This document shows positions 47,401-52,346 of a stretch of DNA of 64,000 bases, in pieces. Origin of the DNA: Octopus vulgaris (Eukaryota). The stretch is from contig OX597835.1 in assembly GCA_951406725.2 (NCBI GenBank), positions 25,296,001 to 25,360,000 on the forward strand. Reading direction: 5' to 3'. How positions within the stretch are numbered: position 1 is the stretch's first letter; the number at the start of each line of letters is the position of its first letter. A program made the position numbers.

Positions 47401-50006
47401 ATATTTTGTTTTAGATCGATTTAAAATTATGCAAAAAAAAAACCTCCAATTAACACAGAAAGTTAGTGATTTAAGATCGATAAGTAGCAATAGTTTAATG
47501 CTTTTAATTTTCTTCCATGGATCTTGTTAAATTTCTTCCAACCACTATATTATTTTCAAGAATTGTAATTCTGATGTGATTTTGTATGCTGATGTCGAAA
47601 ATCGTCTTCATTTTCCGCCTTAGAAATCAAGTTACAAGCATTTAAAACAAGCGGGTGAAAATTTGAAAAACTTCCAAGTGGTTGGAAGAAATCGAACAAG
47701 GTCTTCTTTCTAAAATAAGTATATAATGTATATAAATATATATATCGTTGCTAAGCCAACCTGTGAAGCGTAGCACAGGGGTGAAGGGGAAAAAAATAAT
47801 AAACCTTGTGCTACGAAAGAAAAAGCAGTATTATCTGACATTAATATTCTGTGATATTTGCTTTTTTCTTCTTCCCCATCAGCAAGCAATTATTCCTTAT
47901 TAGCTCTTGTCTAATAGAGCCTGCATTAAAAATAAACGTCAGCACTAACTTAAAACTATTTCAGAAAGACCCCCAAAAAAAAATTAATAATAAGGTTTGC
48001 ATGAAACCAAGTTTTTTTTCGTTTCCTCTTTCATACAAAAGAGAAAGCAACGACATGGTTTCTGGATTCGATTTGATTTTATTTCCCAGCAATCCGTATC
48101 AAATGACGTCACATGATTCCACTTCTGGCCTGAGTGCGCCATTTTGAAATGTCGATGGTAGGGGTAATAGTTATTCCTTTACCATCGTAGGTCTGCCATT
48201 TACGGTTCCTACATTATTTTACTAACCACAGCCACTTCCCTTCTCCTACTGTTGGATAGTACAATTATTTCTCCGTTTACGATGGCGGGTAAGGAAGCTA
48301 TTGGATTTCCCCCTTTGCTAACTTGTAACATTCATTAGGCTCTTACGCGATGTTCGCCTCTTCTCATTTCTTCTTTCTCTTCATCTCTCTCTTCTATCTG
48401 TCTATCTCTTGACGCATGAGCATAAGGATATCGATGTACGTCTGTATACATACATTTCATGTATGTATATATACATACATCGATGTATGCATATAAACAT
48501 AAATGGATATGTCGGTACTTGTCAATTGTCGTGGTCCCGGTTTTGCACACGCGAATTCGCGCGCGCGCGCGCGCCAGACGTAGGTACTCGATACTCGAGA
48601 TCCTACGAGGTGACTTGCGCATGCGCAGTGCAGAATTCGCGCGTGCGCGTTAAACCCCCCCCCCAAAAAAAAGGTGTTGGATTTCACTAAAAATATATGT
48701 GTGTGTGTGTGTGTATATATAACATTTTCAATTTTACACAAAAAAATTACATAGTCGCTTTCCTCGCGGATTTACAGAGAAATGAATTAATTACTATTTT
48801 ACAGAATAAAATTAATGAATTAATTATATAAATTAAATAATTCTTGAAAATTAATTAATATTAATAATATTTTTTGAACAAAGTAAATAATTTATAAAAC
48901 TTGGTTAATAATTTTTTTTACACAAACGCGAACGTATATAATTTGTGAAACTTTTTTTTTTTACAGACGTATATAATTTGGTAAACTTAATGAATTAATT
49001 TCTTCTCATCATCATCATCGTTTAACGTCCGTTCTCCATGCCAGCATGGGTTGGACGGTTCGACCGGGGATCTGGGAAGCCAGAAGGCTGCACCAGACTC
49101 CAGTCTTATCTGGCAATGTTTCTACAGCTGGATGCCCTTCCTAACGCCAACCACTCCGAGAGTGTAGTGGGTGCTTTTTACATGCCACCCGCACAGGTGC
49201 CAGGCGAGGCTGGCAACGGCCACGGTCGGATTGGTGCCAGTCGAGGCGGCTCTGGCATCGGCCACGATTCGGATAGTGCTTTTTACGTACCACCAGTCCA
49301 GGGGTCCTGGCATTTGCCGGGTGCCACACTTGCCCCAACATGTCTTCGCAAGCAAAGGGGTTGGCATGGGTGCCTGTCGTGGGATGAGGTTCGATATCAA
49401 CTTCGCTTGCCTCAACAGGTCTTTGTGTATAAATGTATAAATTTTTCGCACTAAATTCTTTCCGTAGAATTTATAAAAAAACGCGCAAAATTATTCCGTA
49501 GACTTTATCAAATTAAAAAACGCAAAATTAATATATTTTTTGAAATTGCAAATTATTTAGAATATAAAACAAATTAAGTTAAATTTTAAAAATAAATGTC
49601 ATATACTTATACTCTGTAAGGTGCTGTGTTCACACTTCAATTTACTATTTTCTAGAAATGTTGCTTTTCTAATTGAAACAATTTTTCTCAATCTCCATTT
49701 AAAAGTCCATAATGCCTCTTGAGCCATATCAAAATGAACAACTTTGAATTACCCGGTGGTGGTGGTGTGAGGTTCTAATTTTTTTTCTGATCTCTCTTTG
49801 CCCCCTCTTTATCTCAGTTGTTCATTCAGCTAATATTTAGAAAAATTTTCGCGCCCAATTTTTGTTGTCGCGGGAAAAGATGAACGATTTAAAATAAATA
49901 TATCTTAATTGTAGTGTGAGAAAGTATATATATTCTGATGACAAAATATATTATCTTTCAAAAACATCCCAAATTTATAGACTATATCGTGTAGGTTTAA
50001 GAAATA

Positions 50007-50037
<31 letters not shown>

Positions 50038-52346
50038 ATATATACATATATAGTAGAGAATGAAACATCTTTCATCTGTCTCCCCACCACACCTCCATCT
50101 AGGGGGGCAAAGAGAGATCAGAAAAAAAATTAGAACCTCACACCACCACCACCGGGTAATTCAAAGTTGTTCATTTTGATATGGCTCAAGAGGCATTATG
50201 GACTTTTAAATGGAGATTGAGAAAAATTGTTTCAATTAGAAAAGCAACATTTCTAGAAAATAGTAAATTGAAGTGTGAACACAGCACCTTACAGAGTATA
50301 AGTATATGACATTTATTTTTAAAATTTAACTTAATTTGTTTTATATTCTAAATAATTTGCAATTTCAAAAAATATATTAATTTTGCGTTTTTTAATTTGA
50401 TAAAGTCTACGGAATAATTTTGCGCGTTTTTTTATAAATTCTACGGAAAGAATTTAGTGCGAAAAATTTATACATTTATACACAAAGACCTGTTGAGGCA
50501 AGCGAAGTTGATATCGAACCTCATCCCACGACAGGCACCCATGCCAACCCCTTTGCTTGCGAAGACATGTTGGGGCAAGTGTGGCACCCGGCAAATGCCA
50601 GGACCCCTGGACTGGTGGTACGTAAAAAGCACTATCCGAATCGTGGCCGATGCCAGAGCCGCCTCGACTGGCACCAATCCGACCGTGGCCGTTGCCAGCC
50701 TCGCCTGGCACCTGTGCGGGTGGCATGTAAAAAGCACCCACTACACTCTCGGAGTGGTTGGCGTTAGGAAGGGCATCCAGCTGTAGAAACATTGCCAGAT
50801 AAGACTGGAGTCTGGTGCAGCCTTCTGGCTTCCCAGATCCCCGGTCGAACCGTCCAACCCATGCTGGCATGGAGAACGGACGTTAAACGATGATGATGAT
50901 GAGAAGAAATTAATTCATTAAGTTTACCAAATTATATACGTCTGTAAAAAAAAAAAAAGTTTCACAAATTATATACGTTCGCGTTTGTGTAAAAAAAAAT
51001 TATTAACCAAGTTTTATAAATTATTTACTTTGTTCAAAAAATATTATTAATATTAATTAATTTTCAAGAATTATTTAATTTATATAATTAATTCATTAAT
51101 TTTATTCTGTAAAATAGTAATTAATTCATTTCTCTGTAAATCCGCGAGGAAAGCGACTATGTAATTTTTTTGTGTAAAATTGAAAATGTTATATATACAC
51201 ACACACACACACATATTTTTAGTGAAATCCAACACCTTTTTTTTTGGGGGGGGGGGTTTAACGCGCACGCGCGAATTCTGCACTGCGCATGCGCAAGTCA
51301 CCTCGTAGGATCTCGAGTATCGAGTACCTACGTCTGGCGCGCGCGCGCGCGCGAATTCGCGTGTGCAAAACCGGGACCACGACAATTGACAAGTACCGGA
51401 TATGTCTATATTAATATATACATACATGTCGTATATGCATATACATTAAAGTACACACACACATGTGTGTATGTATGTATGTGTGTGTGTGTGTAGCTTT
51501 GCATCTGACAATGTATGCGTATAGTTATACTGTTTGTATGTGTGTATATGTACACACACCTGTGTATATATAGCCACACCTGTGTATATATATGTAATCT
51601 TATAGCTATGCATGCATGTATATATATGTATAATATATCTAGCTATACATCTTTCTATGTGTGTGTGTACAGTTTTACATCTGTGTATATTCATAATCTG
51701 CATAGCTGTATGTTTCTGTGTGTATGTATGCACATATATGTATATCTTTATATTTGTGTATGTATATATAGATGTAAAGGTGTATACACGCATATATGGA
51801 AAGCTATATCTATATATAGCTTTAAATTTATGTATATATACATGTGTGTGTATAAGCTTTACGTTTATATATATAGCTTTATACCTGTATATATCGATGT
51901 ATAGCTTTACACCGATGTGTGTGTGTGTGTGTCTCTAGACATACACACCTTTACATCGATGTACGTTTATATATGTATATAGCGGTACATCGATGCATAT
52001 ATCGCTGTATATCTGAGTGTAAGCGTGTATAATATGCGAAAATATCCGTGTCTGCATTTATGTAAGCAGAGTTTTGCATCTGATGTAAGAACATGTATGT
52101 ATGTATGTGTGTGTGTGTGTATACACATGTAAAAATCCAATCATATACACACACACTGACAGTCGTATGTATGTATATGTATATATATATAAATAAATAT
52201 ATATATATATATATATGTGTGTTTATATAACTTGGTGCATGTGTACGTATATATGCGCACGCATGTGTATGTCTGCATGCATGTTTGTGTGTATCTGTAC
52301 AGATATGTATGAACAGCTATGCATACATGTCTGTTTGTGTGGTGTG

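What the first reader, a model, noticed from the sequence alone, without database searches (positions are those of the whole stretch)
48505..51406. Young 2.9-kb foldback transposon places a ~1.3-kb near-perfect dsRNA stem in intron 1 of the PP2A-B55 gene
Seen: arms 48514-49805 and 50103-51397 are reverse complements differing, by eye, only in homopolymer/microsatellite lengths; GGTAC ends; exact 9-bp TSD; the element starts 225 bp after the exon 1 donor and fills ~60% of the 4.8-kb intron. Known: GG termini with 8-9 bp TSDs fit Merlin, and 9-bp TSDs with long TIRs fit Mutator/Foldback; long dsRNA is an ADAR and Dicer substrate, and coleoid cephalopods edit RNA extensively. Inference: every pre-mRNA from this promoter could fold into a ~1.3-kb hairpin that is hyper-edited or diced, and looping it out would bring exons 1 and 2 closer.
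Basis: partly seen in the sequence, partly recalled or inferred. Interest (0 to 1): 0.8.

Follow-up and report, generated by a model that had tools for sequence, protein, structure and literature searches.

The report
Long-armed foldback transposon in B55 intron
A real, apparently recent, non-coding "foldback" DNA transposon with two almost identical 1.3-kb inverted arms sits in the first intron of an octopus PP2A-B55 gene; it should make a long RNA hairpin if transcribed, which is an ordinary fate for intronic repeats.

Summary
Arms 48514-49805 and 50103-51397 are reverse complements with 1290 matches, 0 substitutions and 7 gap columns, all in mono- or dinucleotide runs. They are separated by a 297-nt spacer, end in GGTAC/GTACC, and are flanked by an exact 9-bp duplication that occurs nowhere else in the window.

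It is a non-coding, non-autonomous TIR transposon of foldback architecture. Each arm carries the same SINE-like repeat, so one half was copied onto the other after that repeat landed. The superfamily is unresolved. GG ends plus a 9-bp duplication fit Merlin. The 9-bp duplication also fits Mutator/Foldback. No transposase and no second copy could be found with the tools at hand.

The gene context is right, with one addition. The element lies 225 nt after the donor of the Met-Ala-Gly first exon (intron 4782 nt, 60% filled). It also lies in the 6831-nt intron of an upstream alternative first exon at 46176-46239.

In silico the intron folds into a 1290-bp stem. Editing, dicing and splicing effects are untested inference. 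Transposon-derived intronic dsRNA is already well documented in other animals. Interest is modest.

The parts
48505..48513 (.). Left target-site duplication GGATATGTC
   Evidence: Identical to 51398-51406. These are the only two copies of the 9-mer in the window.
48514..49805 (.). Left arm (1292 nt), starting GGTAC
   Evidence: Reverse complement of the right arm: 1290 matches, 0 mismatches, 7 gap columns. Pieces I1-I3.
48514..48673 (.). GC-rich terminal domain of the arm: (CG)8 run, two GAATTCGCGCG-type palindromic motifs 80 nt apart, and a second GGTACT at 48583
   Evidence: GC 0.59 and CpG o/e 1.67, against 0.38 and 0.57 for the window. Direct-repeat family D6. TRF. Sequence. A role as the transposase-binding end is inferred.
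49006..49237 (-). Core of a SINE-like interspersed repeat nested in the left arm, in inverted orientation with its (GAT)n tail towards 49002
   Evidence: blastn finds 12 matches elsewhere in the window at 72-86% identity. Alignment A1 shows the shared 3' end and the GAT tail.
49806..50102 (.). Unpaired spacer (297 nt), AT-rich, with an (AT)n run at 50004-50052
   Evidence: GC 0.27. No Pfam family reaches its cut-off in the ORFs.
50103..51397 (.). Right arm (1295 nt), ending GTACC
50671..50902 (+). Mirror copy of the SINE-like repeat in the right arm, with its tail at about 50890-50903
   Evidence: Mirror of 49006-49237 within the perfect 854-nt stretch.
51398..51406 (.). Right target-site duplication GGATATGTC
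48282..48288 (+). Coding part of first exon 1b (ATGGCGG, phase 1); donor GT at 48289-90
   Evidence: Sequence. The Met-Ala-Gly start followed by the exon 2 peptide is seen in the named cuttlefish PPP2R2 protein P0011 and in the human B55 alpha chains of the PDB. No RNA evidence is available here.
46176..46239 (+). Coding part of alternative first exon 1a (phase 1); donor GT at 46240-41
   Evidence: tblastn: residues 1-22 of the NCBI Octopus bimaculoides B55 alpha protein P0008 match 22/22. Sequence.
53071..53139 (+). Exon 2 of the PP2A B55 regulatory-subunit gene
   Evidence: The enclosing ORF hits only B55 alpha chains in the PDB: 4 of 4 distinct sequences, E 3.3e-6 to 4.5e-6. It matches P0008 and P0006 at 23/24 residues. 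Acceptor AG at 53069-70 and donor GT at 53140-41.

Best explanation
This is a genuine insertion of a non-autonomous class II (TIR) transposon with foldback architecture. It has two 1.29-kb arms, a 297-nt spacer, GG...CC termini and a 9-bp target-site duplication.

The long arms are secondary. A SINE-like repeat first landed in one half, and that half was then copied in inverted orientation onto the other. This could happen by strand switching during gap repair or replication (inferred). The result is an element made almost entirely of terminal inverted repeat (TIR). It was mobilised in trans by a transposase that makes 8-9-bp duplications. Merlin is slightly favoured and a Mutator-like enzyme is the alternative.

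The copy landed in a TA/TG-rich tract 225 nt downstream of first exon 1b of the PP2A-B55 gene, inside the intron that both alternative first exons share. The insertion, or the last homogenisation of the arms, is recent.

Any pre-mRNA that reads through will fold the arms into a duplex of about 1290 bp before exon 2 is made. The most likely fate is promiscuous A-to-I editing and removal with the intron lariat, with little or no effect on the B55 protein (inferred).
For: Shown here:
- The arms are identical apart from run lengths.
- An exact 9-bp duplication sits exactly at the repeat boundaries and is unique in the window.
- The inverted repeat stops at the duplication, and the two flanks are different sequences.
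- The terminal 24-mer occurs only at the two ends, even with up to 3 mismatches allowed.
- No Pfam family reaches its cut-off in 10 of 10 element ORFs.
- The same SINE-like repeat sits at mirrored positions in both arms, and 12 diverged copies (72-86% identity) lie elsewhere in the window.
- A second, older palindromic element lies at 40926-41532 with GG ends and an 8-bp duplication. This shows that the architecture recurs in this genome.
- The predicted fold has an MFE of -2464 kcal/mol for the element, against -672 to -695 for 3 shuffles. It forms 1290 arm-to-arm pairs in 5 helices of 151, 28, 225, 42 and 844 bp.

From papers (passages read):
- Merlin has 5'-GG ends and 8-9-bp TSDs and is abundant in O. 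bimaculoides, with 191 sequences (PMC8101967).
- Foldback structure arises independently in several superfamilies by loss of the transposase and elongation of the TIRs (PMC4079207).
- The longest Galileo TIRs are found in non-autonomous two-TIR copies, and TIR length is not diagnostic (PMC3573991).
- Young repeats are the main A-to-I targets across metazoans, with octopus among the species profiled (PMC9989829).
Against: - No second copy of the element was found, so 'transposon' rests on TIR plus TSD alone. The termini have no other match in the 64-kb window. Two ORF-proxy searches of the large protein set found nothing.
- No transposase was found in the element or in 26 other window ORFs of at least 110 aa. 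The superfamily is therefore a guess from 2 terminal bases and a TSD length.
- The arms are almost three times the longest Merlin TIR quoted, 462 bp.
- The arms lack the tandem subrepeats of classical Foldback elements.
- The boundaries allow a 7-bp TSD reading.
- Perfect arm identity could be inflated by read mis-assignment during polishing.
- No data here show that the intron is transcribed, edited or diced.
Confidence: 0.72

Rival explanations
1. The palindrome is old, and arm-to-arm gene conversion keeps its arms identical. The insertion would then not be recent.
For: Zero substitutions together with run-length differences is also what concerted evolution would give. The nested SINE-like repeat is 14-28% diverged from its relatives in the window, so part of the sequence is old. 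That large palindromes homogenise by intrachromosomal conversion is recalled knowledge, not checked here.
Against: The 9-bp duplication lies outside the arms, where conversion cannot protect it, yet it is still 9/9 identical. The older palindromic element at 40926-41532 has drifted to 272 of 305 identical aligned columns, so conversion does not generally keep such arms perfect here. CpG content is no help, because the whole 42.5-52.5 kb domain is CpG-undepleted.
Confidence: 0.1
2. The structure is an assembly artefact. A foldback-chimeric long read or a mis-join created an inverted duplication of a single-armed sequence.
For: Perfect palindromes are a known product of chimeric long reads (recalled). 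All arm differences are homopolymer or dinucleotide lengths, which is the typical long-read error class. No reads are available here.
Against: An artefactual fold-back would carry the left flank into the inverted copy. Here the repeat stops at the same base on both sides. It is bounded by a direct 9-bp duplication, and it continues into a different right flank that runs on to exon 2. There are no N runs in the window.
Confidence: 0.05
3. The hairpin has been co-opted. It would act as an hpRNA-like source of endo-siRNAs, an ADAR-binding platform or a splicing aid that regulates B55 or other copies of the family.
For: It lies just downstream of two alternative first exons of a conserved housekeeping regulator. 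The stem is far longer than Dicer or ADAR need. In C. elegans, intronic transposon-derived dsRNAs are edited, yield siRNAs when ADARs are absent, and associate with essential, highly expressed genes (PMC5859968 passages; PMC6239182 abstract).
Against: A copy this recent has had no time to show conservation. Nothing in the sequence distinguishes it from a neutral insertion. Many other inverted repeat pairs lie in the same window. No expression data are available.
Confidence: 0.06
4. It is not a mobile element but a local inverted duplication made by replication template switching, and the 9-bp repeat is incidental microhomology.
For: No other copy was found. The flanks are low-complexity, which favours slippage and microhomology.
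Against: The arm sequence has no single-copy source next to the palindrome, and its unique parts occur nowhere else in the window. Template switching does not predict a direct duplication of the target at both ends of a symmetric insert. The GG/CC ends with an 8-9-bp duplication recur at an unrelated element in the same window.
Confidence: 0.03

Closest known systems
Merlin superfamily non-autonomous elements (IS1016-related DDE transposons)
   Same: 5'-GG termini and an 8-9-bp TSD (PMC8101967 passages). The superfamily is reported as abundant in Octopus bimaculoides. A second GG/8-bp element lies in the same window.
   Different: Described TIRs are 24-462 bp, against 1292 nt here. No DDE_Tnp_IS1595 transposase could be linked to this element.
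Foldback elements of the Mutator/Foldback group (Drosophila FB, Tm1 of Meloidogyne, Tetris)
   Same: The element consists almost wholly of long inverted arms around a short middle domain. It has no ORF and a 9-bp TSD (PMC3169594 and PMC4079207 passages).
   Different: Their arms are built of short tandem subrepeats, for example 14-bp units in Tm1. These arms are unique sequence plus a nested SINE-like repeat, and only minor arrays were found by TRF.
Galileo two-TIR ('2T') copies, P superfamily, Drosophila
   Same: TIRs reach about 1.25 kb. The longest occur in non-autonomous copies made only of two TIRs and a spacer (PMC3573991 passages). A 7-bp TSD is possible here under the alternative boundaries.
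   Different: The exact 9-bp repeat with GG ends is the better reading. The alternative CGG ends do not resemble P-type ends, which start CA by recall (not checked). No THAP transposase was found. Galileo TIRs are internally repetitive.
Editing-enriched regions (EERs) of C. elegans and inverted Alu pairs of primates
   Same: These are intronic, transposon-derived, intramolecular long dsRNA. 72.3% of EER nucleotides lie in introns, largely from transposons, and ADAR editing competes with Dicer (PMC5859968 passages). This is the behaviour predicted for the element here. Inverted Alu pairs are known from a search listing only (PMC11263572).
   Different: Those were defined by observed editing and small RNAs, and here there is only a predicted fold. 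The stem here, 1290 bp with 4 small bulges, is probably unusually long and perfect for the class, though stem lengths of the known loci were not compared here.

Membership tests
Class II TIR transposon (non-autonomous) | Terminal inverted repeats bounded by a direct target-site duplication | tested here: met
Class II TIR transposon (non-autonomous) | Multiple dispersed copies with different flanks | not testable with these tools
   There is no other copy in the 64-kb window. No eukaryotic genome collection was available. ORF-proxy searches were empty.
Merlin | TIRs begin 5'-GG | tested here: met
   GGTAC...GTACC. Criterion from PMC8101967.
Merlin | 8- or 9-bp TSD | tested here: met
   9 bp exact. 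A 7-bp reading is not excluded.
Merlin | TIR length within the described range (24-462 bp) | tested here: not met
   1292 nt. The range is descriptive rather than defining, and TIR length is said to be unreliable for classification (PMC3573991).
Merlin | DDE_Tnp_IS1595 transposase in autonomous relatives sharing the TIRs | not testable with these tools
   None in 10 element ORFs or 26 other window ORFs. Autonomous relatives could not be searched for.
Foldback (Mutator/Foldback group) | Long inverted arms forming most of the element, with a short middle domain | tested here: met
   Arms make up 2587 of 2884 nt.
Foldback (Mutator/Foldback group) | Arms composed of short tandem subrepeats | tested here: not met
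   TRF finds only a 34-nt x2 unit, (CG)8, (TG)8 and small AT arrays.
Foldback (Mutator/Foldback group) | 9-bp TSD | tested here: met
   Criterion from PMC3169594.
Foldback (Mutator/Foldback group) | MULE-type transposase in autonomous members | not testable with these tools
   No autonomous copy is available.
P superfamily / Galileo | 7-8-bp TSD | tested here: inconclusive
   A 7-bp repeat GATATGT exists only if the ends are moved out by one base. The longer exact 9-bp repeat is preferred.
Endogenous long-dsRNA locus (EER / hpRNA type) | Transcribed, with clustered A-to-I editing and/or 21-23-nt small RNAs from the stem | not testable with these tools
   Only the fold is predicted. No RNA data.
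PP2A B55 (PPP2R2) gene, first intron | Flanking exons encode the B55 N-terminus | tested here: met
   Exon 2 alone was matched to the PDB and to named cephalopod proteins. Exon 1a matches 22/22. Exon 1b is 7 coding nt and is inferred.

The most novel reading that the evidence does not exclude
The element belongs to a currently active octopus foldback family. Its arms would be regenerated as perfect palindromes at or near each transposition, which would explain 0 substitutions in 1290 bp despite an old nested SINE. This copy is driven by the two promoters of a housekeeping gene. It would supply a constitutive 1.3-kb nuclear dsRNA that acts as a major ADAR substrate or sink, or as a source of endo-siRNAs against sister copies. 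That would tie transposon control to the unusually strong cephalopod editing system.
Probability: 0.06. Interest if true: 0.65.

Novelty: new member of a known kind. Interest (0 to 1): 0.3.

Why it matters
If the family is active, it would be a handle on DNA-transposon activity and TIR elongation in cephalopods, about which little is in print. A full-text search for foldback + transposon + cephalopod found 0 papers. A second search found nothing relevant among the 10 papers listed of 30.

The locus is also a clean natural test substrate. It is a unique, almost perfect 1.3-kb hairpin in a presumably broadly expressed gene, where editing, dicing and splicing outcomes can be read with standard RNA-seq. 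Presence and absence alleles could be compared if the insertion is polymorphic.

On present evidence it is one more intronic repeat hairpin. That is a class already known to be the main target of A-to-I editing across animals.

Tried and rejected
- Rfam scan of 47000-54000 at E <= 1 gave 67 matches, none reaching its gathering score. All sit in the TA/TG-rich flanks (microRNA-like noise). Four matches lap over the element's first 1-14 bases; otherwise nothing lies inside the element.
- ARAGORN found 0 tRNA genes in the window, so a tRNA-derived head for the nested repeat is not shown. Calling it 'SINE-like' rests on copy number, size and the (GAT)n tail and on recall.
- Pfam on 10 element ORFs gave two sub-threshold chance hits only. 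Pfam on 26 of the 42 window ORFs of at least 110 aa gave one sub-threshold hit and no transposase. The 16 not sent there lie in the element or in microsatellite tracts, and 3 of them had been scanned.
- Two searches of the large protein set used ORFs reading through the element ends, as a proxy for other genomic copies. They shared words with 1 and 2 candidates, and none scored. This is weak evidence, because non-coding ORFs are rarely in that set.
- CpG content as an age marker was rejected. The element termini have the highest CpG o/e in the window (2.3), but the whole 42.5-52.5 kb promoter domain is undepleted.
- A TSD of the nested repeat inside the arm could not be fixed, because its 5' end is variable among copies.
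- Two papers wanted for superfamily tables and Galileo ends were not held (PMC2167627 and PMC2268567).
- Genome contigs was not used, because it holds only bacteria and archaea.
- A first protein search failed because the query was too short (22 aa). The enclosing 49-aa ORF was sent instead.
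Full report
**Observation.** The repeat finder reports three collinear inverted-repeat pieces: 854 nt at 100%, 229 nt at 100% and 160 nt at 99% complementary. A MAFFT alignment of the left arm (48514-49805, 1292 nt) with the reverse complement of the right arm (50103-51397, 1295 nt) has 1290 identical columns, no mismatch and 7 gap columns in 4 blocks. Every gap lies in a homopolymer or dinucleotide run. The spacer is 297 nt. The ends read GGTAC and GTACC.

The 9 bases on either side, GGATATGTC, are identical. 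They are the only two occurrences of that word in the 64-kb window. The flanks are TA/TG-rich, yet only 39 of 242,064 pairs of 9-mers from the two 500-nt flanks are identical. A match placed exactly at both repeat boundaries is therefore not chance. The window holds no N.

One point was overlooked. The last base of the left duplication and the first base of the right one are complementary (I3). The ends could therefore be read as CGG...CCG with a 7-bp duplication. I prefer the longer exact 9-bp repeat.

**Anatomy.**
- The outer 160 nt of each arm are GC-rich: GC 0.59 and CpG o/e 1.67, against 0.38 and 0.57 for the window. They hold a (CG)8 run, two GAATTCGCGCG-type palindromic motifs 80 nt apart and a second GGTACT. 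This is the likely transposase-binding end (inference).
- Next comes AT-rich unique sequence.
- Then comes a member of an interspersed repeat family with a (GAT)n tail. blastn finds 12 other matches to it in the window at 72-86% identity, and the alignment shows the shared 3' end.
- Last is AT-rich unique sequence up to the spacer.
- Outside that repeat and a few microsatellites, nothing in the element matches anything else in the window. The terminal 24-mer occurs only at the two ends, even with 3 mismatches allowed.
- The arms are not built from tandem subrepeats.
- Ten ORFs of the element give no Pfam family above its cut-off. Rfam and ARAGORN give nothing inside it.

The same diverged repeat sits at mirrored positions in both arms without a single difference. 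One half of the element must therefore have been copied onto the other after that repeat had inserted. The long arms are secondary, not an ancestral TIR.

**Gene context, tested exon by exon.**
- *Exon 2.* The ORF around 53071-53139 hits only PP2A B55 alpha chains in the PDB: 4 of 4 distinct sequences, E about 3e-6 to 5e-6. It also hits named cephalopod B55 proteins in the large protein set, where 14 of 16 candidates had E <= 0.01. The splice sites are AG at 53069-70 and GT at 53140-41.
Its Met-Ala-Gly start followed by the exon 2 peptide is the N-terminus of the named cuttlefish protein P0011 and of the human B55 chains. This exon is inferred and not supported by RNA here. Intron 48289-53070 is 4782 nt. 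The element starts 225 nt into it and fills 60.3%.
- *Exon 1a (new).* tblastn of the NCBI Octopus bimaculoides B55 alpha protein P0008 against the window places its first 22 residues, 22/22 identical, at 46176-46241. The sequence shows ATG at 46176 and a donor GT at 46240, in the same phase as exon 1b. There are therefore at least two alternative first exons. The element lies in the intron of both, and for exon 1a the intron is 6831 nt, of which the element is 42%.
- No later B55 exon lies in the window.
- The 22/22 match suggests that the window is O. bimaculoides or a very close relative.
The reading frame across the junctions is argued from phase only.

**What it is.** A symmetric insert with sharp ends, a direct duplication of the target and no coding capacity is a non-autonomous cut-and-paste transposon. 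Its shape, nearly all arm with a short middle, is the foldback architecture.

Passages read in the literature support this view:
- The foldback shape evolves independently in several superfamilies, through loss of the transposase and elongation of the TIRs (PMC4079207).
- In Galileo the longest TIRs, up to about 1.25 kb, are found in non-autonomous two-TIR copies, and TIR length is unreliable for classification (PMC3573991).

The superfamily could not be settled:
- GG ends plus an 8-9-bp duplication are the stated hallmarks of Merlin. Merlin is reported as abundant in O. bimaculoides, with 191 sequences (PMC8101967). The arms are, however, far longer than the 24-462 bp quoted.
- A 9-bp duplication and foldback shape also fit the Mutator/Foldback group (PMC3169594). 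The defining tandem subrepeats are absent.
- The 7-bp alternative would point to P/Galileo, but the ends do not look P-like. That judgement is from recall and was not checked.
- No transposase was found in the element or in 26 other long ORFs of the window.
- A second, unrelated palindromic element lies at 40926-41532. It has GG ends, an 8-bp duplication TCCCATTC and arms with 272 of 305 aligned columns identical. GG-ended, 8-9-bp-TSD foldback-like elements therefore recur in this genome and decay with time.

**Age.** With 0 differences in 1290 sites, the 95% upper bound on arm divergence is 0.23%. The duplication outside the arms is intact at 9/9. The simplest reading is a recent origin of the palindrome and a recent insertion.

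Two caveats apply. Arm-to-arm conversion could keep the arms identical, and polishing with mis-assigned reads could erase real differences. The run-length differences may be sequencing errors or real slippage. CpG content does not help, because the whole 42.5-52.5 kb domain around the two first exons is CpG-undepleted. Depletion sets in only from 52.5 kb, where o/e is 0.06-0.26.

**Likely behaviour.**
- RNAfold of the whole intron gives -3109 kcal/mol.
- The element alone gives -2464 kcal/mol, against -672 to -695 for three shuffles.
- It forms 1290 arm-to-arm pairs in five helices of 151, 28, 225, 42 and 844 bp.
- The second arm is transcribed about 1.7 kb before exon 2, so the stem can form before the intron is removed (inference).

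In other animals such structures are the usual substrates of ADARs:
- Young repeats, especially DNA transposons and SINEs, carry on average 83% of editing sites across metazoans in a study that included O. bimaculoides (PMC9989829).
- In C. elegans 72.3% of editing-enriched dsRNA nucleotides lie in introns, mostly transposon-derived. They yield Dicer products when ADARs are missing (PMC5859968).
- Such structures associate with essential, well-expressed genes (PMC6239182 abstract).

Hyper-editing followed by loss with the lariat is thus the default expectation. Dicing and a splicing benefit are possible but untested. The stem would reduce the effective donor-acceptor path from 4782 to about 1900 nt. 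The window also holds many other inverted repeat pairs of 100-170 nt at 76-90%. This element is the extreme of a common class and not something of a new kind.

**Rivals.**
- *Assembly artefact.* A chimeric fold-back would invert the flank as well. Here the repeat stops at the duplication and the right flank runs on to exon 2. Unlikely.
- *Old palindrome kept identical by conversion.* Possible, but the intact external duplication and the decayed second element speak against it.
- *One-off template-switch duplication.* It does not predict the target duplication or the ends.
- *Co-opted regulatory hairpin.* It cannot be excluded, but nothing supports it.

**Not possible here.** There was no cephalopod genome, read or RNA collection to search. 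Copy number, empty sites, read support, transcription, editing and small RNAs all stayed unchecked. Two ORF-proxy searches for other copies were empty.

**Verdict.** The structural interpretation is supported, with the additions listed above. The functional interpretation is plausible but unproven, and it is ordinary for intronic repeats. The element is a new member of a known kind. Searches for foldback elements in cephalopods found nothing in print.

Noticed in passing
window 40918-41540: A second, older foldback-like miniature element lies at 40926-41532 (607 bp). It has GGATC...GATCC ends, an 8-bp duplication TCCCATTC, arms of about 276 nt around a 57-nt spacer, and 272 of 305 aligned columns identical. 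CCCTAA-type telomere-like repeats sit next to the spacer. It has the same GG/8-9-bp signature as the main element, but the ends are unrelated in sequence.
   Followed up: partly
window 46176-46241: An alternative first coding exon of the B55 gene is 22/22 identical to the start of the NCBI Octopus bimaculoides protein, with a donor GT at 46240. The gene therefore has at least two starts upstream of the element.
   Followed up: yes
window 42500-55000: There is a sharp CpG landscape. CpG o/e is about 0.7-1.5 (up to 2.3 at the element ends) from about 42.5 to 52.5 kb, then 0.06-0.26 from 52.5 kb on. This looks like an unmethylated promoter domain followed by a methylated gene body.
   Followed up: partly
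window 31440-31690: A small palindromic MITE-like repeat has 88-nt arms, an 11-nt loop and 91% complementarity. Its inverted similarity extends into the flanks.
   Followed up: no
window 1-42000 (e.g. 20331-20902, 33648-35412): There are many inverted pairs of at least two SINE-like repeat families, 100-170 nt long and 76-90% complementary. One family is the (GAT)n-tailed repeat nested in the element.
   Followed up: partly
window 48418-48513 and 51398-52400: The element is inserted in a roughly 1.1-kb TA/TG-rich low-complexity tract. This tract gives the only sub-threshold microRNA-like Rfam hits of the region.
   Followed up: no
protein P0008 (NCBI O. bimaculoides B55 alpha, 496 aa): After the conserved N-terminal WD region, the first 80 residues printed run into a hydrophobic, low-complexity stretch unlike B55. 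The tblastn output shows a run of N residues further on. The public model may retain intron sequence.
   Followed up: no
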